From a virus: DNA of 41,186 nucleotides. Of this stretch, positions 9,238 to 19,161 are shown piece by piece (position 1 is the first letter of the stretch; each line of letters opens with the position of its first letter). The notes under the pieces are model-generated. The model did not search any database. It saw only the letters and a list, made by a program, of their open reading frames with translations, and was not told the origin of the DNA. The position numbers and the translations under genes were made by a program. The stretch lies in the IMG/VR virus record IMGVR_UViG_3300024921_000002, positions 1 through 41,186 of that record; one strand, written 5' to 3'.

Positions 9238-10167
9238 TTAATTGTCCGGCGTATGGGTTTTGACTTCGCCGCCGAACAGCTCAACCAGGCGAGGCAGGAA
9301 GTTGGCCAGTTCCAGCGACATGATCGAAAAATCGACATCGAACCGGTCGGCTTCGGATTCTGTTTCAGTCTCGGCTACTTGATCCTGTATCAGGTCAAGA
9401 AATTTCAGGCGTTTAATGGCCAGCTCGTCATCGATAACAAATGACAGGCGATCGGCCCAGGTTACGGCCAGCTTAAAAACGTGTTTGCCTGAATCCAGAT
9501 GATTTTTAATTTCCGGAAGGCTCAAGTCGTGGCGTTTGCAGCGGATAATGCCGCCTTCTTCTTCCGGTGCGCGTAGTTCGCATTCGTCATCAAGGGTGAT
9601 GTCATCCGGTGCCGGCGCTTCATCATCCAGCCAGCCGGTCATCACGCTAACAGGACGGTTTAAGGTGATCCGGTTAATCGGCGTGGCCGGTAATGAGCCA
9701 AGGCATTTACGCAAGCTGCTGAGCAAATCTTCGGCTTTATTCGCCGAGGCAGCATCAACAACCAGCCAGCCGCCTTTGGGGTCGATGTAGGCGTAAGTCT
9801 TGGTTTGGAAAGTAAACGCCCTGGGCAATAGCTCAAAGATCAGTTCGTCTTTAATGGCGATTCTTTCTTTTTTGCCTAACTTGCGGCCCTGTTGTTGTTC
9901 GGCTTCAAGAATCTTTTCCTGAGTCATTTCATTAACGACCATTGTGGGCAGGACTCTTTCTTCTTTTTGGCCGCACAGCATTAAAAAGCCGTTTGAACTA
10001 TGCACCAGCTGTTCCGATGATTTGCCTAGCGGTGATGTCCAGCCATAGGTGGACAGTTCGTGACTGCCGCAAGGGCTGAAAGCCATTGGCAACAGTTTTT
10101 GTTCAAGGTCTGGATCGACGGCGAAATCGCTGTTAAGTCGATAGATGTTTATATTTTTAAACCACAT
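9238..10167 (-). CDS. rdgC: RdgC-like recombination-associated protein
   Basis: MWFKNINIYRL...MAFSPCGSHE..YGW..P.., ...ERVLP..VV, LLPRAF and KAEDLLSSLRKCLGSLP are collinear with E. coli RdgC (MLWFKNLMVYRL...MAFTPCGSQD...LLPRAF...KKAEDTLALLRKSLGSLP). Confidence 0.85.
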   Translation of the reverse strand: MWFKNINIYRLNSDFAVDPDLEQKLLPMAFSPCGSHELSTYGWTSPLGKSSEQLVHSSNGFLMLCGQKEERVLPTMVVNEMTQEKILEAEQQQGRKLGKKERIAIKDELIFELLPRAFTFQTKTYAYIDPKGGWLVVDAASANKAEDLLSSLRKCLGSLPATPINRITLNRPVSVMTGWLDDEAPAPDDITLDDECELRAPEEEGGIIRCKRHDLSLPEIKNHLDSGKHVFKLAVTWADRLSFVIDDELAIKRLKFLDLIQDQVAETETESEADRFDVDFSIMSLELANFLPRLVELFGGEVKTHTPDN

Positions 10168-11626: not shown

Positions 11627-12547
11627 CTATGGATTAAATAGATCGATCTGACGGTTTGCTGAGCGGTGTTCTATCACTTCAAGTATCGAATACTCTGACT
11701 TCATTCCTTTCATGGTGAGCCATTGTAGGAGCTGAACCTTGGCTTTTAAGATGTCGTTTTTGGCAAAAACTTCTTCGCTTGCATTAACGCGAGCTAAAAA
11801 GTCTTCATCCAGTATTTCAGCATAAAATGTTTGAATACCGTCGGTAAAGCGCCATTTATTTCCATCTGCAAATGACGCATTGATGATTTGCAAGCTGACG
11901 ATCGTCGTTTGGTCGTTTATTTTTTCATCGCCAGGATCGGGGGCGACAAAATAAATTGACTCCCTCTTATCTATCATTAAGAGCGGTTTTCCGGGTGCAT
12001 CAGGATCAACGATTGCGAATGACTCAATACCATCACGCAGCAGGGGCTTGGTTATGATGTTTTCAAATGCTTGTCTTATTTTATGGTTTTGCAGAAGGGC
12101 AAGGGCGGTCTTTTCAATATCATAATGATCATCATCAATATAAACTCTAACGATTCCATTGTCAGCAACTTCTGTTTTAGTGATTTTCCTATTCCGAACC
12201 CAACGCAAAAAACCTATTAATGTGCCGCCAGTATAGTTAGCAAGGCCAATAATACCGGCTGCATTTAAAACAGCCGTTGTATTGCCATGATTAAATATGT
12301 CAATAGCGTCTAAGATTAGGCTTTTAGCGGTAGCAACCATTTCGACGCCAAAGCAACCTGTTTTAAATGATCCCTTTACGCTGACGCCTATTTTAAATTT
12401 ATCGCCATATAGCGAGTTTCCAACCTCTTCCATAAGGCTTCCGATAGCCATTAGAGCGGGTGCAAGGTCATGCACATCCATCTCGTGGTTATCGAGAGCA
12501 GGTCCGTCATAGATTACTTGGAATTTAGCTGGCTTCATGTCAATCAT
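11627..12547 (-). CDS. Hypothetical 306-aa protein, no recognisable domain (cassette gene D)
   Basis: Long clean ORF in an A+T-richer segment. AAGG lies 9 nt upstream and a terminator follows immediately downstream. No catalytic motif recognised. Confidence 0.7.
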   Translation of the reverse strand: MIDMKPAKFQVIYDGPALDNHEMDVHDLAPALMAIGSLMEEVGNSLYGDKFKIGVSVKGSFKTGCFGVEMVATAKSLILDAIDIFNHGNTTAVLNAAGIIGLANYTGGTLIGFLRWVRNRKITKTEVADNGIVRVYIDDDHYDIEKTALALLQNHKIRQAFENIITKPLLRDGIESFAIVDPDAPGKPLLMIDKRESIYFVAPDPGDEKINDQTTIVSLQIINASFADGNKWRFTDGIQTFYAEILDEDFLARVNASEEVFAKNDILKAKVQLLQWLTMKGMKSEYSILEVIEHRSANRQIDLFNP

Positions 12548-12735: not shown

Positions 12736-13038
12736 TTACTCAGGTACGCCGGCTCGGCTGCAATCGTCTTTTTTAATCTTTTTCCATTGTATAAAGTTAG
12801 GCTCATCTTTTGCGTTAAGATAGCTTGACGTAATTACGGTAGCCTGTACGCAAATATCCATTGGTGTTCCACTGCGCTTGACTATTTCGTATCGTTCAAG
12901 GGAGTCGCTAATGGCTTTGTAATAGGTATCTTGCAAAGCATCCGCTTGGCTATATCCGGAAATTAAATACAAGCAAGAGGCAATCGCACCAATAATGTTG
13001 GCGTTAGATTGTAATGGGCTTTTTTTCTTTATTGTCAT
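12736..13038 (-). CDS. Small exported / membrane-anchored protein, possible lipoprotein (cassette gene C)
   Basis: 100 aa. The N-terminus MTIKKKSPLQSNANIIGAIAS|CLYLISG has a basic n-region, a hydrophobic stretch and an IASC lipobox-like motif. There are further Cys residues in the mature part. Confidence 0.5.
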   Translation of the reverse strand: MTIKKKSPLQSNANIIGAIASCLYLISGYSQADALQDTYYKAISDSLERYEIVKRSGTPMDICVQATVITSSYLNAKDEPNFIQWKKIKKDDCSRAGVPE

Positions 13039-13064: not shown

Positions 13065-13700
13065 TTAGTTGGTGATGTTGATAAATTTTGCCCAGGATTC
13101 CTCACATAGTATTGTCACGGGGCTGCCTTGCTCTTGGTAAAGTAAGGCTTTTTCTATTTTTCTGCCGTGGCTGGTGGCTATCCAGTCGCGGCTGGCGAGT
13201 GCGCCGATGACTAGATAATCAAGCTTTTTAGTGACGGATTTGGCCGGTATGCCGCCCAGCTCGGTGATGATTTGTTCGCATTTATCACGGGTTCCGGTGA
13301 TAAATGCGCCGGTTAAGCAAAATGTTGAGCCATTAACAATGAGTTCGTCAGGCTCTTGGTTGCCGAAGCTGGTGCTAAAGCCGCCCGCTGCACCGGTCTC
13401 TTGAAAAGTTCCACCTATAAGTTTAGATAAGGTTTGGTAGAAGTCTTCCCGCTCTTCCTGGGTGATGATGTTGTCGGCCAAGATGTCGTCAATACGTTGT
13501 TTAACAACGTTGAGCGGGAATGATCGAGTATAGGCCTCGTTGTCTTTTAGCCATAGATTGAGGAAGTGAATTTCGTTGTCATTGATAACCTGGTCTGCGG
13601 TAATGCCCATAATGAGGCCATACAGGGTATTGATAGCCTTGATCTCGTTGCTTGCGGCGTGGAAGCCGGGCGGTAGTTGGTTGTTATGGTAACGGTTCAT
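13065..13700 (-). CDS. TerB-like N-terminal domain + C-terminal BRCT domain protein (cassette gene B)
   Basis: Start reset to the ATG at 13700, which forms an ATGA overlap with the upstream stop. The C-terminus GSTFCLTGAFITGTRDKCEQIITELGGIPAKSVTKKLDYLVIGALAS...KIEKA is collinear with the LigA BRCT domain. The N-terminus GITADQVINDNEIHFLNLWL...ITQEEREDF is TerB-like. Confidence 0.6.
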   Translation of the reverse strand: MNRYHNNQLPPGFHAASNEIKAINTLYGLIMGITADQVINDNEIHFLNLWLKDNEAYTRSFPLNVVKQRIDDILADNIITQEEREDFYQTLSKLIGGTFQETGAAGGFSTSFGNQEPDELIVNGSTFCLTGAFITGTRDKCEQIITELGGIPAKSVTKKLDYLVIGALASRDWIATSHGRKIEKALLYQEQGSPVTILCEESWAKFINITN

Positions 13701-14401
13701 TCTATTTGCTCGTCTTTGGTGCTGCTGATTGTTAGCCATGTCCCCATGGTTTCAGTCTGGGTCAGTGTGTATTTAATGCCGTTACGAATGGCGGTTCCAC
13801 CAAGCTGTCCTCTTTTAGAACCAAAGCCGAGTGAGTTTATTACACTCCCTCTATCGGCCTTTGATAGCTTGGGATTCGTTGCAATCACAGCGGAAAGTAT
13901 GCCTTCGAGCACGTTAGCTCCCGACTTCAGAGTTCCGTCTCCCGTTCCTATAAATATGATGTCAGTTACATCGCCGGAAATCTTATTTGCCGTAATTATC
14001 AGTGCGAGGTTATTGGATAGTGCTGCATTCGTTATTTGTTCTTCGCCGTTATCGCTATCATTAACCGTTAGGTTATTTGGATTGATGGTTAGGTTCATTT
14101 CCTTAGCGGCATTTTTATAAGCACTTATAAATTCGGTAGTGGTAAAGCCCATGCCGAGATTTTCTTTCTTAATCGGTTTAGCCGTCTCGGATTTTGGTTG
14201 GGTGGGGCTTCCATCGGTGGTTACGGTATTGTTATCTTTAATGATTCCGACAAGGGAACCTACTGCCGCAATTAATATGAAAACGACTAAACAGCCTGTC
14301 CATGCCTTAACTCCTGGATTTGCCGCGCCGCAATTCGGACAGGTTTTTGCACTTCTATCAACTTGGTGTTTGCAGGATTTGCATTCAACCAGACTACTCA
14401 T
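13697..14401 (-). CDS. Zinc-ribbon / single-TM / extracytoplasmic-domain protein (cassette gene A)
   Basis: MSSLVECKSCKHQVDRSAKTCPNCGAANPG is a CxxC..CxxC ribbon, followed by the TM segment WTGCLVVFILIAAVGSLVGII and then a domain of about 170 aa with no recognisable motif. AAGGGAG is the SD. Confidence 0.65.
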   Translation of the reverse strand: MSSLVECKSCKHQVDRSAKTCPNCGAANPGVKAWTGCLVVFILIAAVGSLVGIIKDNNTVTTDGSPTQPKSETAKPIKKENLGMGFTTTEFISAYKNAAKEMNLTINPNNLTVNDSDNGEEQITNAALSNNLALIITANKISGDVTDIIFIGTGDGTLKSGANVLEGILSAVIATNPKLSKADRGSVINSLGFGSKRGQLGGTAIRNGIKYTLTQTETMGTWLTISSTKDEQIE

Positions 14402-14502
14402 ATCTTTATGCTCCCTTTTTTTATGGTTTGTATATAGGCAATTGCTTACGCCGTAGCTGATGCGACAAAAGCAAAGCAGCTACGGTTTATTTATCGTAAT
14501 AG

Positions 14503-14898
14503 TTATGTAGATCCGTTAACGACTTTATTTATATATTCCTCACCTTGATAGTGAGCGCGTGTCTCAGAGACAACCATTGTCGCGTGTTTGCCGCTATTGT
14601 CGCTGTGTAAATAATTTTCTACCAGTTTTTCGATGCGATTGCTGAGCAATTCTTCAATTGGTTGGTTAGGGATCATCAAGTGAAATGCTTGCAAGCCAAA
14701 GTGCTCGGCTAGTTTATCGATGGTATCTGAGCGGATACTTTCCACATTTTCTTCATCAAATAAATAGCTGACGGTGCGTTGTGATAATCCAACCAGTTTT
14801 CCGAACTCAGCTTGGCTCATTTTGCGGCCGGTTTCCCTGGCTCTATGGTCTAGTAAAGTTTTGACGTTCCCTGCAACTATTTTCTTAGTATTAATCAT
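14503..14898 (-). CDS. CI-like repressor (XRE-family HTH, no S24 peptidase domain)
   Basis: Trimmed to MINTKKIVAGNVKTLLDHR...MSQAEFGKLVGLSQRTVSYLF (131 aa). It is divergent from a Cro-like gene across a tripartite operator. Confidence 0.8.
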   Translation of the reverse strand: MINTKKIVAGNVKTLLDHRARETGRKMSQAEFGKLVGLSQRTVSYLFDEENVESIRSDTIDKLAEHFGLQAFHLMIPNQPIEELLSNRIEKLVENYLHSDNSGKHATMVVSETRAHYQGEEYINKVVNGST

Positions 14899-14921
14899 GT
14901 GTTCAATGATAAATCCACGGC

Positions 14922-14983
14922 CTAGCAATGGTTTATTTTTAATTAAGCAATTCTTTGCTTGTTTAACTAGCAATAAATTGCTA
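14922..14983. promoter_or_regulatory. OR-type tripartite operator / divergent promoter region
   Basis: TAGCAATGGTTTATTT (14922-14937, imperfect), AAGCAATTCTTTGCTT (14945-14960) and TAGCAATAAATTGCTA (14968-14983). Start-to-start spacing is 23 bp, and the half-site is the same AGCAAT seen at OL. Confidence 0.7.
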
Positions 14984-14994
14984 AATTGTTGCGT

Positions 14995-15189
14995 ATGAAA
15001 ATTATGAAGCATGTCGAAAGCCTCCAAGAGCAGGTGGCAAAGCACGGGGATTATAGGGGCCTTTCTAGCAAGGCTGGGGTTAGCTTTCATTGGCTTTCCA
15101 AGTTTGCCGCTGGGCATATGCCAAATCCGACGATCAAGAACATCGCTAAGGTGGAGTCGTTTTTTAATCATGAGATTGGCTCGAAGTAG
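14995..15189 (+). CDS. Cro-like HTH regulator
   Basis: MKIMKHVESLQEQVAKHGDYRGLSSKAGVSFHWLSKFAAGHMPNP. Divergent from the repressor. The start is ambiguous (14995 or 15004) and may be near-leaderless. Confidence 0.65.
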   Translation: MKIMKHVESLQEQVAKHGDYRGLSSKAGVSFHWLSKFAAGHMPNPTIKNIAKVESFFNHEIGSK

Positions 15190-15658
15190 TGGGGTATTTT
15201 GGTGTGAAGTCTGATTTGTTTGAGTTGCAGTCCTATAGGTTGGGCATGTTGTTTGAAGAGCAAAGATAATTTTAACCCCCACAGTCCTGTCTAGTAATAG
15301 GGCTGATTACCTAGGTAGGTTTACCTATGATTCCAGATAGTTATCAACCGGCAGATTGGCGTAATACGACGAGCGCGGACGCGGACAACCAGCAAATTGG
15401 TGTCGGCTTTAATTTGTTAGACGGCAGCATTATGAGGCTGGCTTTGTCATTTGATGGTGAAAATGTATGACCGCCTACTAAGTCGTCAAGGGCATGTTGC
15501 GGCATGTGATCTACCAAGGCTGTCGTCTTGATAGATCACATGCCATCGGTTGCCTTTTTGTTTGATAAAGAATGTTCCTGCTTGGGTTTTGTGAAGGTAG
15601 GTCATGGCGGATCTGATGTGGTTGGTTAAATTTTTAAGCATAGCAGTAAAGGGTATTT

Positions 15659-16054
15659 ATGACTATTAAGGCGAAAATGGTTAATCAAGGGCGATTTACG
15701 AAGCGCGAGGCCGAGGTGGCAACGCTGATGGCTGAGGGTCATGCGGATAAGGTTATCGCGCGTTTACTGGCGGTCAGTATTCGCACGGTTAATGCGCATG
15801 TCGGCAATATCTATGAGAAGTTGGCGTTGCATTCTGAATCTATTGGAGTTAGTACGGCGGCCATTAATAGCCGGTGTTATGCGGTGGCGGTGATGATTGC
15901 GCGGGGCATGATCAGTGTGTCGATTAAGTCGATTGTGATGGTGCTGATTTTTAACGCGACGCTGGTTGATGATGACAGTGCGGTGCGGGTGCGTAACGGC
16001 CGGGGTAGGGCGCATGCGCATGTGTCTCGGATGCGCAGGGTTGGCGATGCTTAA
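15659..16054 (+). CDS. LuxR/GerE-family HTH transcriptional regulator
   Basis: FTKREAEVATLMAEGHADKVIARLLAVSIRTVNAHVGNIYEKL is a canonical GerE-type HTH. AAGGG is the SD. Confidence 0.75.
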   Translation: MTIKAKMVNQGRFTKREAEVATLMAEGHADKVIARLLAVSIRTVNAHVGNIYEKLALHSESIGVSTAAINSRCYAVAVMIARGMISVSIKSIVMVLIFNATLVDDDSAVRVRNGRGRAHAHVSRMRRVGDA

Positions 16055-16749: not shown

Positions 16750-19161
16750 ATGTCTTCGAATTATGATGATGTAAAATTACAGCTGGTTGGGTTTGGCCTT
16801 CAGGTCGATCGACTGACAACTGGGCGCATGATCCGCTGCCGGGTTGAAGGTGACCGAGAGAAACGCGGCTGGTATATCCTGCATGAAATCACCCTGACCG
16901 GCGGCGACATCGTCTTTGTCGGCTCGTATGGTATCTGGCAGGGCGCGGACAACAATGCGCAAAAAATAGAGATCACCCGAACCGACCTCAGCGCCGAGCA
17001 AAAAGCCGCCATCAAGCAGCGCATTGCCGACGACAAAAAGCGCGTGGACGCGGAGCAAAAACGCAAAGCGGAACAATCAGCTGCCAAAGCCAGTGCCGCC
17101 TGGCGCAACCTTGAAATAGACGGCGATTGCGACTACCTGCACCGCAAAGGCGTCATTGCCCATGGCGTAAGATTTACCGAAAAAGGCGCATTGGCCGTGC
17201 CGATGCTGGACACCCAAGGTCGCATCCACGGACTGCAATTCATCCTGGATAAAGAAAAACAAAAAGACCTGATCAAAAAGCACAACGGCCGCGATAAACA
17301 ATACTGGCCAGCGGGCGCCGTAAAGAAAGCCCATTTCCACCTGATCGACAGTCCAACCACACTCATACTGGTTGCTGAAGGCTATGCCACCGGCGCTACC
17401 GCTTACGAAGCCACCGGCTTTCCGGTAGCAATTGCCTTCGATGCCGGCAACCTTCAATCTGTCGCCCAGGCGCTAAAAAAATACTACCGCGAAGCGCAAA
17501 TCCTAATCTTAGCCGACGATGATGCATTCGCTCGCTGCCAGCATTGCCAGCAACCGGTACAAGTTAACCTATCCGCAACTTGCCCGCACTGCAACGAACC
17601 GCACGGCAAGAAAAACGCGGGAAAAGAATACGCAGAACTGGCCGCGCTGGCCGTCAATGGCCGCGTCGTATCGCCAAAATTTGCCGATCCGGAAGCCCGG
17701 TTCGACCACTACTGCCGCAACCAAGGCAAACTGACCGACTTCAACGACCTGCACCTGATCGATGGCCTACACACGGTAAGGATTCAGATCGAGGAAGCCA
17801 TCAAGCAAGCAGGATTCACCGTCACCGCCAAAGCGCGGGAAGCGCAACCACAGGGGGGTGGGGAAGCTACAAAAGCCGCACTAAAACCCATCGACTGCTA
17901 CGACCACGCCCTGGGTCGATTCAGCCTCGTCTATGCTATGGGTGGTATGCTCTTCGATGCCCAAGAGCACATGCGCATCGCGCTCAACGACTTCAAGCAA
18001 GCCTGCGTCCACTCCGACATCCCCAAGCGCTGGCAAGAAAGCAAACAGCGGCGGATCGTCAGGCCCGACGAAGTCGGATTTGACCCGACCGAAAAAGACA
18101 AGAACATCACCTGCAACGTCTGGGACGGCTTCCCGACCACGCCGATTGAAGGTAACTGCGAGCGCCTGCTAGACCTGCTCATGTACATGTGCGCCGAAGA
18201 AAAAAACAGCGAGGCTGTTTACAACTGGGTACTGCGCTGGCTGGCGTACCCGCTGCAACATCCCGGCGCAAAGATGAAAACCACCATCGTCATCCACGGC
18301 CCGCAAGGCACCGGCAAGAACCTATTCTTCGACGTCATTCTCGGCATCTACGGCAAATATGGCCGCATCATTGACCAGTCGGCTATCGAAGATAAATTCA
18401 ACGATTGCTTCGGCGGTAAACTGTTCATGCTCGCTGATGAAGTCGTGGCACGATCCGACCTTTACCACATCAAGAACAAGCTCAAAGGCCTGATTACCGG
18501 CGACCGAATCCGCATAAACCCGAAAAACATGGCGGCCTATGAAGAGGCCAACCACGTCAACCTCGTTTTCCTGTCGAACGAGCGAATGCCGGTCGTCCTC
18601 GACCAAGATGACCGGCGGCACCAGGTTATATGGACGCCAGCAAAACTAGGACCCGATTTTTATAACGAAATAGCGCTGGAAATCGACAACGGCGGCGCGG
18701 AAGCCCTGCATTATTACCTGGTCAACCTACCGCTGGGCGACTTCAACCCGCATACCAAACCGCTGATGACTACCGCCAAACAAGACCTGCAAGACCTCAG
18801 CAAAGACAGCATCATCCGTTTTTACGACGAGTGGAATACCAATGAAATCAGCGGCGTGCCACCCATTCCGGCGCTGTCGGAAGACATCTACACCCTATAC
18901 ACCCACTGGTGTAGACGGGAAGGCGTCAGAGCCGCACCCAAAAACAAAGCCATTGACGCCATAGCCAAGCGCCCTGGCGTAAAAAAAGAACGAAAGCGCT
19001 ACCTAAACGGAGTGGCCATGGTCGAAAACCCGAAAACCATCATCACCCCCGCCAACGCCGAAGAAATGTCACCCGGTAATTCAGAAGCCGGTTGGCTTGG
19101 TTTTAACATCAATAATTTCAAGGATTCAGTCGATGCGTACAAAGAAGATAGCCGCGCTTAA
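16750..19161 (+). CDS. Bifunctional primase/helicase (TOPRIM primase + P4-alpha/D5-type SF3 NTPase)
   Basis: TOPRIM region: LILVAEGYATGATAYEATGFPVAIAFDAGNL...ILILADDD. Walker A is IVIHGPQGTGKN and Walker B is LFMLADEV. A CxxC-N14-CxxC ribbon lies after the DDD motif. Confidence 0.85.
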   Translation: MSSNYDDVKLQLVGFGLQVDRLTTGRMIRCRVEGDREKRGWYILHEITLTGGDIVFVGSYGIWQGADNNAQKIEITRTDLSAEQKAAIKQRIADDKKRVDAEQKRKAEQSAAKASAAWRNLEIDGDCDYLHRKGVIAHGVRFTEKGALAVPMLDTQGRIHGLQFILDKEKQKDLIKKHNGRDKQYWPAGAVKKAHFHLIDSPTTLILVAEGYATGATAYEATGFPVAIAFDAGNLQSVAQALKKYYREAQILILADDDAFARCQHCQQPVQVNLSATCPHCNEPHGKKNAGKEYAELAALAVNGRVVSPKFADPEARFDHYCRNQGKLTDFNDLHLIDGLHTVRIQIEEAIKQAGFTVTAKAREAQPQGGGEATKAALKPIDCYDHALGRFSLVYAMGGMLFDAQEHMRIALNDFKQACVHSDIPKRWQESKQRRIVRPDEVGFDPTEKDKNITCNVWDGFPTTPIEGNCERLLDLLMYMCAEEKNSEAVYNWVLRWLAYPLQHPGAKMKTTIVIHGPQGTGKNLFFDVILGIYGKYGRIIDQSAIEDKFNDCFGGKLFMLADEVVARSDLYHIKNKLKGLITGDRIRINPKNMAAYEEANHVNLVFLSNERMPVVLDQDDRRHQVIWTPAKLGPDFYNEIALEIDNGGAEALHYYLVNLPLGDFNPHTKPLMTTAKQDLQDLSKDSIIRFYDEWNTNEISGVPPIPALSEDIYTLYTHWCRREGVRAAPKNKAIDAIAKRPGVKKERKRYLNGVAMVENPKTIITPANAEEMSPGNSEAGWLGFNINNFKDSVDAYKEDSRA

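What the first reader, a model, noticed from the sequence alone, without database searches (positions are those of the whole stretch)
13065..14401. Translationally coupled pair: membrane zinc-ribbon sensor-like protein + cytoplasmic TerB-like/BRCT protein
Gene A ends and gene B starts in an ATGA overlap (13697-13700), implying stoichiometric co-expression.
- Gene A has a cytoplasmic CxxC..CxxC ribbon, one TM segment and an extracytoplasmic domain of about 170 aa with no recognisable motif.
- Gene B joins a TerB-like helical module to a BRCT domain. BRCT is a phospho-protein / nicked-DNA / PAR-binding fold that in bacteria is best known from LigA.

A membrane-anchored partner plus a BRCT reader is an unusual two-component architecture for a prophage immunity region. 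The pair could sense envelope or DNA-entry events.
Basis: inference. Interest (0 to 1): 0.7.

Follow-up and report, generated by a model that had tools for sequence, protein, structure and literature searches.

The report
Prophage BRCT protein with membrane partner
Next to the repressor of a Methylobacter prophage lie two overlapping genes, a zinc-ribbon membrane protein and a BRCT protein of a widespread phage family whose function has not been tested; the two probably work together, but the pairing is optional and the biology is inferred.

Summary
Two minus-strand genes overlap in ATGA at 13697-13700.

- **Gene A** (14401..13697) has a four-cysteine zinc ribbon, one membrane helix and an ectodomain of about 150 aa.
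- **Gene B** (13700..13065) has a four-helix N-module, a linker and a BRCT domain. Pfam scores the BRCT above its threshold, and the fold is closest to the RFC1 and LigA BRCT domains.
- **TerB-like** is only weakly supported.

B is not an orphan. It belongs to the Vibrio phage K139 Orf2 family (phrog_3989) and is distantly related to the PADLOC candidate PDC-S48. The family is typically found next to cI-type repressors.

The A-B pairing is not general:
- The closest B relatives (79%, 60% and 55% identity) follow the repressor directly, without A.
- A's ectodomain family (272 cluster representatives) mostly occurs on other membrane anchors, and the one checked genomic context had no B.

Even so, zinc-ribbon-plus-membrane-helix genes lie next to B in 6 of 71 B lineages, against 0 of 1333 other ORFs. 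Two of these pairs share the ATGA overlap, and one protein (P0081) fuses a zinc ribbon directly to B.

Best reading: a lysogeny-side accessory pair in which A tethers a protein that binds DNA ends or nicks to the inner membrane, for exclusion of incoming DNA or for sensing DNA damage. Function is inferred, not shown. This is a new member of a known but uncharacterised kind, of moderate interest.

The parts
13697..14401 (-). Gene A: 234-aa bitopic membrane protein with a cytoplasmic zinc ribbon, one membrane helix, a linker and an extracytoplasmic alpha/beta domain
   Evidence: ORF. Identical to public protein P0121, named 'zinc ribbon domain-containing protein' of Methylobacter tundripaludum. 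AF2 model.
14324..14392 (-). Zinc ribbon of A (residues 4-26, CxxC-x10-CxxC)
   Evidence: Pfam Zn_ribbon_3 E=1.9e-5, 24.4 bits against a cut-off of 27. The four Cys are invariant in alignment A7. The N-terminal 60 aa match the zinc-ribbon membrane neighbour of a divergent B in L114 (phmmer E=4.6e-6).
14234..14302 (-). Single membrane helix of A (about residues 34-56)
   Evidence: Hydropathy scan. AF2 helix 38-51. The N-in orientation is inferred from the basic residues before the helix.
13718..14152 (-). Extracytoplasmic domain of A (about residues 84-228)
   Evidence: AF2 pLDDT about 70-85, alpha/beta. No significant PDB fold match; the best is DUF4309 YjgB at E=3e-3. phrog_26814 E=4.9e-7. 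272 cluster representatives at E<=1e-3, where it is always C-terminal to variable anchors.
14411..14415 (-). Shine-Dalgarno-like GGGAG, 9 nt before the ATG of A
   Evidence: Read directly from the sequence.
13697..13700 (-). ATGA overlap of the stop codon of A and the start codon of B
   Evidence: Sequence. The same overlap occurs in the divergent pair of L251. It is absent in L003 (5-nt gap) and L007 (23-nt gap).
13065..13700 (-). Gene B: 211-aa cytoplasmic protein of the K139 Orf2 / phrog_3989 family
   Evidence: P0001 matches at 100% identity and 407 relatives were found. tblastn to K139 Orf2 gives 41.6% identity and E=6e-40. phrog_3989 E=1.8e-62. PADLOC PDC-S48 is hit weakly.
13407..13667 (-). 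N-module of B (residues 12-98): four helices forming two helix-loop-helix repeats, each with an invariant Asp-x6-Glu pair (D36/E43 and D76/E83)
   Evidence: AF2 helices 15-33, 41-53, 63-73 and 81-94. Invariant columns. The module is duplicated in the long forms of about 297 aa. Only weak hits to TerB, SHOCT, GA_3 and EF-hand.
13347..13406 (-). Conserved but disordered linker of B (residues 99-118, ETGxAGGxST motif)
   Evidence: pLDDT below 50 for residues 99-110. G96, G103 and G107 are invariant in A1.
13080..13346 (-). BRCT domain of B (residues 119-207) of the RFC1/LigA type
   Evidence: Pfam BRCT at 25.9 bits against a cut-off of 21.3; 64 of 69 relatives also hit it. Foldseek finds RFC1 BRCT at E=7e-5. 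The family profile finds RFC1 at 2.3e-6 and Thermus LigA at 2.4e-5 in the PDB, with T130-G131 and R138 aligned to the RFC1 TG and R positions.
14503..15282 (-). Upstream cI-like HTH repressor gene. This is the maximal ORF. The real start is probably the ATG at 14898, giving about 131 aa. There is no S24 peptidase domain.
   Evidence: Pfam HTH_3 E=7.2e-5 at residues 147-197 of the long ORF. phrog_8 and phrog_3 are transcription regulators. Sequence.
12736..13038 (-). Downstream 100-aa ORF with a signal-anchor or lipobox-like N-terminus (..IIGAIASC..), 26 nt after B
   Evidence: ORF. No family hit. The lipobox reading is from the sequence only.
11627..12547 (-). Next gene on the same strand: LAPAL-motif protein / PADLOC candidate PDC-S42
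   Evidence: PDC-S42 E=2.9e-90. NCBIfam LAPAL_fam E=1.6e-79. phrog_3243 E=5.3e-69.

Best explanation
The window is a prophage of Methylobacter tundripaludum SV96. A and B are the first two genes after the cI-like repressor, on the lysogeny-side strand.

**What is shown.**
- B is a member of the K139 Orf2 / phrog_3989 family. It has a four-helix repeat module, a conserved flexible linker and a BRCT domain.
- The closest structural and sequence relatives of that BRCT domain are the BRCT domains of RFC1 and of the NAD-dependent ligase LigA.
- The positions that align with the RFC1 Thr-Gly and Arg residues are invariant in the family.

**What is inferred.**
- B binds 5'-phosphorylated DNA ends or nicks. 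It has no catalytic domain, so it would act as a binder or sensor and not as a ligase.
- A is an optional partner. Its cytoplasmic zinc ribbon contacts B and holds it at the inner membrane. A's periplasmic domain is one of several interchangeable ectodomains.
- The pair is expressed in the lysogen with the repressor and acts on DNA that enters at the membrane, giving superinfection exclusion or defence.
- In the many phages that carry B alone, B does the same job untethered.
For: **Identity and context.**
- B is identical to a M. tundripaludum protein, and the locus is on NZ_JH109152.
- The window carries an integrase, an endolysin, a primase and an HTH repressor.

**Family.**
- B is 41.6% identical to K139 Orf2. 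In K139, orf2 lies in the PL lysogenic operon cI-orf2-glo-int (annotation). Its stop overlaps the start of the exclusion gene glo as TGATG.
- B hits phrog_3989 at E=1.8e-62.
- 60 of 69 relatives hit the PADLOC candidate PDC-S48, with a best E of 6e-14.

**Position next to repressors.**
- An S24/HTH repressor lies directly upstream of B in L169 (79% identity), L171, L090 and L186, and in Pseudomonas phage phi1.
- 18 of 34 viral lineages have a cI-like gene within two genes of B.

**BRCT type.** Searches agree. T130, G131, R138 and K181 are invariant.

**A-B link.**
- 6 of 71 B lineages have an adjacent zinc-ribbon membrane ORF, against 0 of 1333 non-adjacent ORFs.
- The partner's zinc-ribbon and membrane part is conserved while the ectodomain is swapped (L007; L251).
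- The same partner type pairs with B proteins that are only 29% identical to each other.
- An ATGA overlap recurs in L251.
- P0081 is a direct fusion of a zinc ribbon to B.
Against: - No experiment on any family member was found. DNA binding, the A-B contact, co-transcription with the repressor and exclusion are all inferred.
- The alignment of the fourth pocket residue is ambiguous: it could be K181 or R171.
- Most B genes have no zinc-ribbon neighbour. These include the closest relatives at 79% and 73% identity.
- 77 of 80 viral loci with A-like N-termini lack B.
- The long form of B is conserved in what looks like ordinary chromosomal context in Pseudohongiella-like marine bacteria. It sits next to an ABA4-like membrane protein, and only 4 of 46 genome lineages are near a repressor. 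That fits a housekeeping DNA function better than defence.
- The neighbour statistics rest on crude six-frame ORF calls and on a motif-plus-hydropathy rule.
- A 101-nt gap with a 9-bp hairpin separates the repressor from A, and the promoter and terminator scans were uninformative.
Confidence: 0.35

Rival explanations
1. B is part of the lysis-lysogeny circuit and not a defence gene. It would be a BRCT-based sensor of DNA damage (nicks, gaps or ends) that modulates the repressor's stability or activity, with A as an accessory input or an unrelated gene.
For: - B neighbours cI-type repressors in three different arrangements: co-directional downstream, convergent with a 9-nt overlap, and with A in between.
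- The window's repressor has no S24 self-cleavage domain, so induction needs some other input.
- The zinc-ribbon-B fusion P0081 lies divergent from a phage early-gene block, where a repressor would normally be.
- Conserved chromosomal copies suggest a non-toxic function in DNA metabolism.
- A 2026 preprint lists cI and BRCT genes together as alternative regulatory modules of Roseobacter prophages, by annotation only (PMC13345283).
Against: - B has no recognisable sequence-specific DNA-binding or repressor-binding domain.
- Many B genes sit beside S24 repressors that already sense RecA.
- Its relative PDC-S48 is listed in PADLOC as a candidate defence gene.
- In K139 the gene is coupled to the exclusion gene glo.
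- No experiment exists.
Confidence: 0.3
2. A and B are independent accessory genes that both favour the slot next to the repressor. A would be a stand-alone membrane protein of the superinfection-exclusion type, and B a stand-alone BRCT protein. The overlap would reflect compact operon packing only.
For: - The closest B relatives lack A.
- A's ectodomain family has 272 representatives, mostly on other anchors, and in one checked case lies in a SusC/SusD context without B.
- Only 3 of 80 loci with A-like N-termini carry B.
- The overlap is lost in L003 and L007.
- Any-membrane-helix neighbours of B are not significantly enriched (23 of 73 against 174 of 761, p=0.07).
Against: - The specific combination of zinc ribbon and membrane helix is enriched next to B: 6 of 71 lineages against 0 of 1333 ORFs from the same loci.
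- It recurs with B proteins only 29% identical, in both gene orders, and twice with an ATGA overlap.
- P0081 is a zinc-ribbon-B fusion.
Confidence: 0.25
3. B is a DNA ligase or ligase subunit, as many database entries name it ('NAD-dependent DNA ligase').
For: JGI and GenBank names. The BRCT domain is similar to that of LigA.
Against: - Only the BRCT part matches. TIGR00575 covers positions 545-634 of 652 at 33.8 bits, against a cut-off of 444.
- There is no adenylation, OB-fold or HhH domain in Pfam.
- The protein is only 211 aa long.
Confidence: 0.03

Closest known systems
Vibrio phage K139 Orf2 (NP_536630, 'BRCT domain-containing protein'), family phrog_3989
   Same: - Same family: 41.6% identity over 89% of B, E=6e-40, and phrog_3989 at E=1.8e-62.
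- Same place, directly after the repressor on the lysogenic strand.
- Also translationally overlapped with a gene for an envelope protein (glo, TGATG).
   Different: - K139 Orf2 is the long form, with two N-modules and 301 aa.
- Its envelope partner is downstream and periplasmic (Glo), with no zinc ribbon.
- No function for Orf2 was found in the papers I could read.
BRCT domains of RFC1 (p140) and bacterial LigA
   Same: - Best fold and profile matches.
- The family's invariant T-G and R align with the RFC1 TG and R positions. From my own knowledge, these are T415, G416 and R423 of the 5'-phosphate pocket described by Kobayashi and colleagues.
   Different: - B has no clamp-loader or ligase domains.
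- It has an insertion of about 9 residues (ASRDWxxTS) before helix 2.
- The equivalent of RFC1 K458 is ambiguous (K181 or R171).
- DNA binding is untested.
PADLOC candidate PDC-S48 (untested single-gene defence candidate)
   Same: 60 of 69 family members match it, with a best E of 6e-14.
   Different: The match covers only profile positions of about 275-375 out of 411, meaning the second helical hairpin, the linker and the start of the BRCT domain. B lacks the N-terminal 270 positions, so it is a relative and not a member.
Lambda cI-rexA-rexB (own knowledge): a membrane protein plus a cytoplasmic sensor co-transcribed with the repressor
   Same: - Same position after cI.
- Same split into one membrane and one cytoplasmic component.
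- Presumed expression in the lysogen.
   Different: - No hit to any Rex model at E<=1 in the PADLOC scan (that PADLOC-DB contains Rex models is my own knowledge).
- A has one membrane helix and an ectodomain, not a polytopic channel.
- B works without A in most phages.
TerB (PF05099) / DjlA N-domain, and SHOCT (PF09851)
   Same: Helix-loop-helix units carry an A-D-G-x-(I/L)-x3-E motif. hhalign aligns B 'RIDDILADNIITQEER' with DjlA 'QIQAAFADGSLHPNER'. A few relatives give weak Pfam hits (TerB 6, SHOCT 6, DUF533 3 of 69).
   Different: No significant score anywhere: there is no Pfam hit for the window protein, hhalign gives a probability of 2.6%, and no TerB structure appears in the PDB profile search.

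Membership tests
BRCT (Pfam PF00533) | Profile score at or above the curated gathering threshold | tested here: met
   25.7-25.9 bits against 21.3. 64 of 69 relatives also hit it.
BRCT (Pfam PF00533) | Beta-alpha-beta-beta-alpha-beta-alpha fold | tested here: met
   AF2 elements E126-130, H138-147, E151-153, E162-165, H177-190, E196-199 and H200-207. The top Foldseek hits in the PDB are BRCT domains with probability 1.0.
DNA-binding BRCT subclass (RFC1 / LigA type) | Conserved Thr-Gly, Arg and Lys of the 5'-phosphate pocket | tested here: inconclusive
   T130-G131 and R138 align with the RFC1 TG and R positions and are invariant. The Lys equivalent is either K181 (by secondary-structure register) or R171 (by HMMER alignment). 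That these residues form the pocket comes from my own knowledge.
DNA-binding BRCT subclass (RFC1 / LigA type) | Binding of 5'-phosphorylated or nicked DNA | not testable with these tools
   Needs gel-shift or fluorescence-anisotropy assays with purified protein.
TerB (Pfam PF05099) | Significant profile match | tested here: not met
   No hit for the window protein at E<=10. 6 of 69 relatives hit it, with a best E of 0.0016. hhalign against E. coli DjlA gives a probability of 2.6%. No TerB chain appears in the PDB profile searches.
TerB (Pfam PF05099) | Helical bundle with repeated acidic (Asp...Glu) motif | tested here: inconclusive
   The four-helix module has invariant D36/E43 and D76/E83. 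SHOCT and EF-hand/dockerin loops share the same motif type.
K139 Orf2 / phrog_3989 family | Similarity over N-module, linker and BRCT | tested here: met
   tblastn covers 89% of B at E=6e-40. phrog_3989 gives E=1.8e-62 over profile positions 97-292 of 296.
K139 Orf2 / phrog_3989 family | Location in or beside the prophage immunity module | tested here: met
   The window order is HTH repressor, A, B. K139, phi1, L169, L171 and L090 have B directly after the repressor. 18 of 34 viral lineages have a repressor within two genes.
PADLOC PDC-S48 | Full-length match to the 411-position profile | tested here: not met
   Only profile positions 274-375 are matched, at E=4e-5 for the window protein.
NAD-dependent DNA ligase (LigA, TIGR00575) | Adenylation, OB-fold and HhH domains, and a score above the cut-off | tested here: not met
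   33.8 bits against 444.45, and only model positions 545-634 (the BRCT part) are matched.
RexAB-type two-gene exclusion | Homology to RexA/RexB; polytopic channel partner | tested here: not met
   Neither protein hits a Rex model in the PADLOC scan. A has a single membrane helix.
Zinc ribbon (Pfam PF13248 / PF13240) | Four-Cys knuckle pair and a profile score above threshold | tested here: inconclusive
   24.4 bits against 27. The CxxC-x10-CxxC motif is invariant in the four N-terminal sequences aligned, and the 72% homologue carries precomputed PF12773/PF13248. Metal binding is not testable here.
Obligate A-B two-component system | Conserved adjacency of the two families | tested here: not met
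   Adjacency occurs in 6 of 71 B lineages and in 3 of 80 viral loci with A-like N-termini. It is enriched but facultative.

The most novel reading that the evidence does not exclude
Zinc-ribbon membrane anchors with interchangeable periplasmic domains, together with K139-Orf2-type BRCT proteins, form a previously undescribed modular two-part prophage system. The BRCT protein is held at the cytoplasmic face of the inner membrane. There it captures the 5'-phosphate end or the cohesive-end nick of incoming phage DNA, which blocks circularisation or triggers a response. The untethered single-gene form does the same job in K139-like and D3-like phages.
Probability: 0.15. Interest if true: 0.7.

Novelty: new member of a known kind. 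Interest (0 to 1): 0.4.

Why it matters
The B family is large. The word-indexed search found 407 relatives, and the family occurs in Vibrio, Pseudomonas, enterobacterial, methanotroph and marine prophages. It occupies the slot beside the repressor, where rexAB, sieB, BstA and glo-type exclusion genes are found (own knowledge). Yet I found no functional study of it.

A BRCT domain of the type known to bind DNA ends, expressed from the lysogeny side, gives a concrete and testable lead in either direction:
- a way of excluding incoming DNA, or
- a damage sensor feeding the lysis-lysogeny switch.

K139 and the P. aeruginosa phages are tractable models. The recurrent zinc-ribbon partner and the fusion protein P0081 give a specific interaction to test.

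Tried and rejected
- **DNA similarity.** A megablast of the 5-kb region against the phage collection found nothing.
- **TerB.** Tested with Pfam on 69 relatives, PDB profile searches with the whole protein and with the N-module alone, and hhalign against E. coli DjlA. None was significant. I had no TerB multiple alignment for a proper profile-profile test.
- **N-module fusions.** The third homologue search, using the N-module profile, returned only short stand-alone or truncated N-module proteins. No new fusion partner and no TerB-annotated hit appeared.
- **Fold of A.** Foldseek of A against the PDB gave nothing significant. Foldseek of B against BFVD found only other BRCT proteins and ligases.
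- **Literature.** Searches for K139 orf2, BRCT with prophage, TerB with BRCT, and PDC-S48/S42 found no functional work. The 1999 K139 control-region paper is not held.
- **Other scans.** The promoter and terminator scan was at background level. Rfam found nothing near the genes. The hairpin between the repressor and A is no better than shuffled sequence.
- **Ideas dropped.**
  - Ligase function, because only the BRCT part matches.
  - RexAB membership.
  - General enrichment of any membrane-protein neighbour next to B (p=0.07).
Full report
**1. Observation**

The two genes are on the minus strand. Gene A runs 14401..13697 (234 aa). Gene B has a longest ORF of 13739..13065. The plus strand reads tcat at 13697-13700, so the minus strand reads ATGA, with the start codon of B overlapping the stop codon of A.

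The start at 13700 is the right one. It gives the 211-aa protein found in public databases as 'BRCT domain-containing protein [Methylobacter tundripaludum]' (P0001, 100% identity and coverage). It also matches the N-termini of 24 relatives. The window lies on M. tundripaludum SV96 scaffold NZ_JH109152.

An ATGA overlap alone is weak evidence, because such overlaps are common (own knowledge). It is also not conserved here. The 72%-identical homologue of A is followed by its B gene after a 5-nt gap (L003), and L007 has a 23-nt gap.

**2. Anatomy of A**

- **Zinc ribbon.** Residues 4-26 carry CxxC-x10-CxxC. Pfam Zn_ribbon_3 gives E=1.9e-5 and 24.4 bits, just below its cut-off of 27. The four cysteines are invariant in the four N-terminal sequences aligned.
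- **Membrane helix.** One hydrophobic helix follows at about residues 34-56.
- **Linker and ectodomain.** A low-confidence Pro/Thr/Lys-rich linker leads to an alpha/beta domain at about residues 84-228, with pLDDT about 70-85.
- **Fold.** The domain has no Pfam family and no significant PDB fold match. The best hit is DUF4309 YjgB at E=3e-3.
- **Distribution.** The first, word-indexed search made the domain look like an orphan, with 5 hits. The exhaustive search found 272 cluster representatives at E<=1e-3, of which 56 are at E<=1e-10.
- **Architecture of relatives.** In those relatives the domain is always C-terminal to some anchor. Of the 149 relatives inspected, 14 combine a zinc ribbon with membrane helices, about 16 carry a lipobox, and most of the rest have membrane helices alone.
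- **PHROGs.** The two halves fall in separate families, phrog_14275 for the N-terminus and phrog_26814 for the ectodomain.

A is therefore a modular envelope protein. A promiscuous cytoplasmic zinc-ribbon and membrane-helix anchor carries one of many possible periplasmic domains. The N-in, C-out topology is inferred from the basic residues before the helix.

**3. Anatomy of B**

- **Model.** AF2 with 25 sequences gives pLDDT 83. It shows four helices (15-33, 41-53, 63-73, 81-94), a disordered stretch at 99-110 and a BRCT fold at 126-207.
- **BRCT support.** Pfam BRCT passes its threshold at 25.7-25.9 bits against 21.3. The best PDB fold hits are the RFC1 BRCT domain (2ebu and 2k7f, E=7e-5 and 6e-4) and a LigA-containing entry (9a6z, E=7e-5). 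The family profile finds RFC1 at 2.3e-6 and Thermus LigA at 2.4e-5.
- **Pocket residues.** In the HMMER alignment, the invariant FCLTG and R138 align with RFC1 FVITG and ER. From my own knowledge of the RFC1 work by Kobayashi and colleagues, these are T415, G416 and R423 of the 5'-phosphate pocket. The fourth residue, K458, corresponds either to K181 (by helix register) or to R171 (by HMMER alignment). Both are invariant or nearly so.
- **N-module.** It is two helix-loop-helix repeats, each with an invariant Asp-x6-Glu pair: D36/E43 and D76/E83. The long forms of about 297 aa, including K139 Orf2, have two such modules.
- **Linker.** The linker is predicted to be disordered yet keeps invariant glycines (ETGxAGGxST). 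I cannot explain this.

**4. Is the N-module TerB-like?**

Only weakly.
- The window protein has no TerB hit at E<=10.
- Among 69 relatives, 6 hit TerB (best E 0.0016), 3 hit DUF533, 6 hit SHOCT, 13 hit GA_3 and 5 hit EF-hand_5.
- The N-module profile finds no TerB structure in the PDB. Its top hit, at E=0.079, is a dockerin-type calcium loop.
- hhalign against E. coli DjlA, whose N-domain I recall being placed in the TerB family, gives a probability of 2.6%. It does align the shared A-D-G-x-(I/L)-x3-E-R motif.

The resemblance is at motif level and is shared with SHOCT and EF-hand-like loops. Membership of TerB is not met.

**5. What family is B, and where does it live?**

- **Named relatives.** tblastn against phage genomes finds Vibrio phage K139 Orf2 and its relatives (41.6% identity, E=6e-40), Sulfurimonas phage SNW-1 and a group of Pseudomonas phages.
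- **K139.** The annotated lysogenic operon from PL is cI-orf2-glo-int. The orf2 stop overlaps the start of glo as TGATG. The record annotates Glo as a periplasmic exclusion protein.
- **Pseudomonas phage phi1.** The BRCT gene directly follows the repressor.
- **Database families.** B is phrog_3989, of unknown function. 60 of 69 relatives match part of the PADLOC candidate PDC-S48.
- **Closest metagenomic relatives.** These follow an S24/HTH repressor directly, with no A: L169 at 79% identity, L171 at 60% and L090 at 55%.
- **Repressor census.** A cI-like gene lies within two genes of B in 18 of 34 viral lineages. In 5 it is co-directional and upstream, and in 10 it is convergent and downstream. 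The figure is only 4 of 46 for genome-derived lineages.
- **Chromosomal copies.** Many of the genome-derived lineages are long-form genes in Pseudohongiella-like marine bacteria. They have a recurring neighbourhood that includes an ABA4-like membrane protein. This looks vertically inherited and not phage-borne.

**6. Is A-B a pair?**

Against an obligate pair:
- The closest B relatives lack A.
- The one checked ectodomain relative with long flanks lies in a SusC/SusD context without B.
- Only 3 of 80 viral loci with A-like N-termini have B within 2.5 kb.

For a real, facultative link:
- **L007/L008.** This related prophage has an S24 repressor, then a zinc-ribbon membrane protein with a different ectodomain (P0123), then B at 78% identity.
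- **L251.** A second prophage of the same M. tundripaludum genome has a P0123-like zinc-ribbon membrane protein (65% identity). It overlaps in ATGA with a B protein only 29% identical to the window's.
- **L114 and L338.** These have B followed by a zinc-ribbon membrane protein. A's first 60 residues match the L114 protein at E=4.6e-6.
- **L085.** A membrane protein with two zinc ribbons and four membrane helices precedes B by 23 nt.
- **L101.** B is followed after 3 nt by a protein with a zinc ribbon, two membrane helices and an exonuclease-like motif.
- **P0081.** This protein fuses a zinc ribbon, with no membrane helix, directly to the N-terminus of a B protein.

Over 325 B loci grouped into 71 lineages at 70% identity, 6 lineages have an adjacent co-directional zinc-ribbon membrane ORF. 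None of 1333 non-adjacent ORFs of at least 80 aa in the same loci has that architecture (Fisher p=7e-7, or 7e-6 without the window's lineage).

Caveats on this test:
- The ORFs are raw six-frame calls.
- The detector is a Cys motif plus a hydropathy threshold.
- Part of the sample was drawn from a sub-clade chosen after the association had been seen.

What is conserved among the partners is the cytoplasmic zinc ribbon and the membrane helix, not the ectodomain. That points to the zinc ribbon as the part that matters to B.

**7. Context in the window**

- An integrase lies at 307-1554 on the plus strand.
- A left arm of minus-strand genes holds a C5 methylase, a GH108 endolysin and RdgC.
- The LAPAL / PDC-S42 gene is at 11627-12547.
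- A 100-aa lipobox-like ORF is at 12736-13038.
- Next come B, A and the HTH repressor.
- A divergent GerE/LuxR-type HTH gene is at 15659-16054 (phrog hits).
- A primase-helicase is at 16750-19161.
- The repressor has no S24 domain.

A has a good Shine-Dalgarno sequence, GGGAG, 9 nt upstream of its ATG. The 101-nt spacer after the repressor holds a 9-bp hairpin with no U-tract that is no better than shuffled sequence. Co-transcription with the repressor is therefore plausible but not shown.

**8. Mechanism**

*Shown:* family identity, domain architecture, the BRCT subclass by similarity, the position beside repressors, and the facultative but enriched pairing with zinc-ribbon membrane anchors.

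*Inferred:* B binds 5'-phosphorylated ends or nicks. A's zinc ribbon recruits B to the membrane. The pair is expressed in the lysogen and acts on entering DNA, giving exclusion or defence.

The main rival, which I weight almost equally, is that B senses DNA damage for the lysis-lysogeny switch. The conserved chromosomal copies, the S24-less repressor here and the repressor-like position of P0081 all favour it. A 2026 preprint groups cI and BRCT genes as regulatory modules, by annotation only.

A third reading is that A and B are independent accessory genes. A ligase function is excluded by domain content.

**9. Novelty and verdict**

The gene pair is real. B is a new member of an already catalogued but uncharacterised phage family. 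I found no description of the zinc-ribbon-anchor partnership or of the fusion in the searchable literature, but it occurs in a minority of lineages.

Interest is moderate. This is a good, testable candidate in a well-known genomic niche, and not a surprise to a specialist.

Noticed in passing
window 11627-12547 (-): This 306-aa gene matches the PADLOC candidate PDC-S42 (E=2.9e-90), NCBIfam 'LAPAL motif-containing putative phage structural protein' (E=1.6e-79) and phrog_3243. One family is thus labelled both as a defence candidate and as a structural protein. Here it sits among the lysogeny-side accessory genes, not in the structural module.
   Followed up: partly
window 12736-13038 (-): A 100-aa ORF lies 26 nt downstream of B. 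Its N-terminus (..NIIGAIASC..) looks like a signal anchor or lipobox, and it has no hit in any family library. It would be a third envelope-directed product in the same gene string.
   Followed up: no
window 14503-15282 (-) and 15659-16054 (+): The repressor-like HTH gene has no S24 peptidase domain. Its real start is probably the ATG at 14898, giving about 131 aa. The divergent first gene is a GerE/LuxR-type HTH protein and not a Cro-like one. A near-perfect 18-nt inverted repeat (15501-15518 / 15527-15544, 94% complementary) lies between them and may be an operator.
   Followed up: partly
L251 2465-3873 (IMGVR_UViG_648276688_000003, a second prophage of the same M. tundripaludum genome): This is a second pair of a zinc-ribbon membrane gene and a BRCT gene with an ATGA overlap. 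It lies near an integrase and a Bro-N-like gene. Its B protein has 309 aa, including a C-terminal extension of about 100 aa, and is only 29% identical to the window's B.
   Followed up: partly
L330 5001-5738 (protein P0081): A zinc ribbon is fused directly to a B-family protein with no membrane helix between them. The gene is divergent from a block of small phage early genes, a beta-clamp gene and a DNMK gene, which is where a repressor would normally sit.
   Followed up: partly
L101 4613-5413: Directly after B (3-nt gap) lies a 266-aa protein. It has an N-terminal zinc ribbon, two membrane helices, a Ser/Thr-rich linker and a C-terminal DEDD-type exonuclease-like motif (LILDTETTGL..EVIEIG). 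NCBIfam also matched B's BRCT domain to the BRCT end of a PolIII-epsilon-like family (PRK06195).
   Followed up: no
L020, L021, L029, L046, L065-L070 and others (Pseudohongiella and related marine Gammaproteobacteria): The long form of B (about 297 aa, two N-modules) is conserved in apparently non-prophage chromosomal context. It sits next to a membrane protein of about 149 aa (ABA4-like, 8 lineages) and a divergent protein of about 113 aa with three membrane helices. This suggests a host function for the family.
   Followed up: partly
window 13347-13406 (-), B residues 99-118: The linker between the N-module and the BRCT domain is predicted to be disordered (pLDDT below 50). Even so, it keeps invariant glycines in an ETGxAGGxST motif across the family. 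I have no explanation for this.
   Followed up: no
window 9238-10167 (-): A full-length RdgC homologue (Pfam E=1.7e-117) lies in the prophage left arm. An RdgC gene was also the upstream neighbour of B in one other lineage.
   Followed up: no
L105, L117, L138 and about 10 viral lineages: In many prophages from isolate genomes, B is convergent with an HTH_3 plus S24 repressor gene of about 228 aa. The two 3' ends overlap by 9 nt. This is a different but equally tight association with the repressor.
   Followed up: partly
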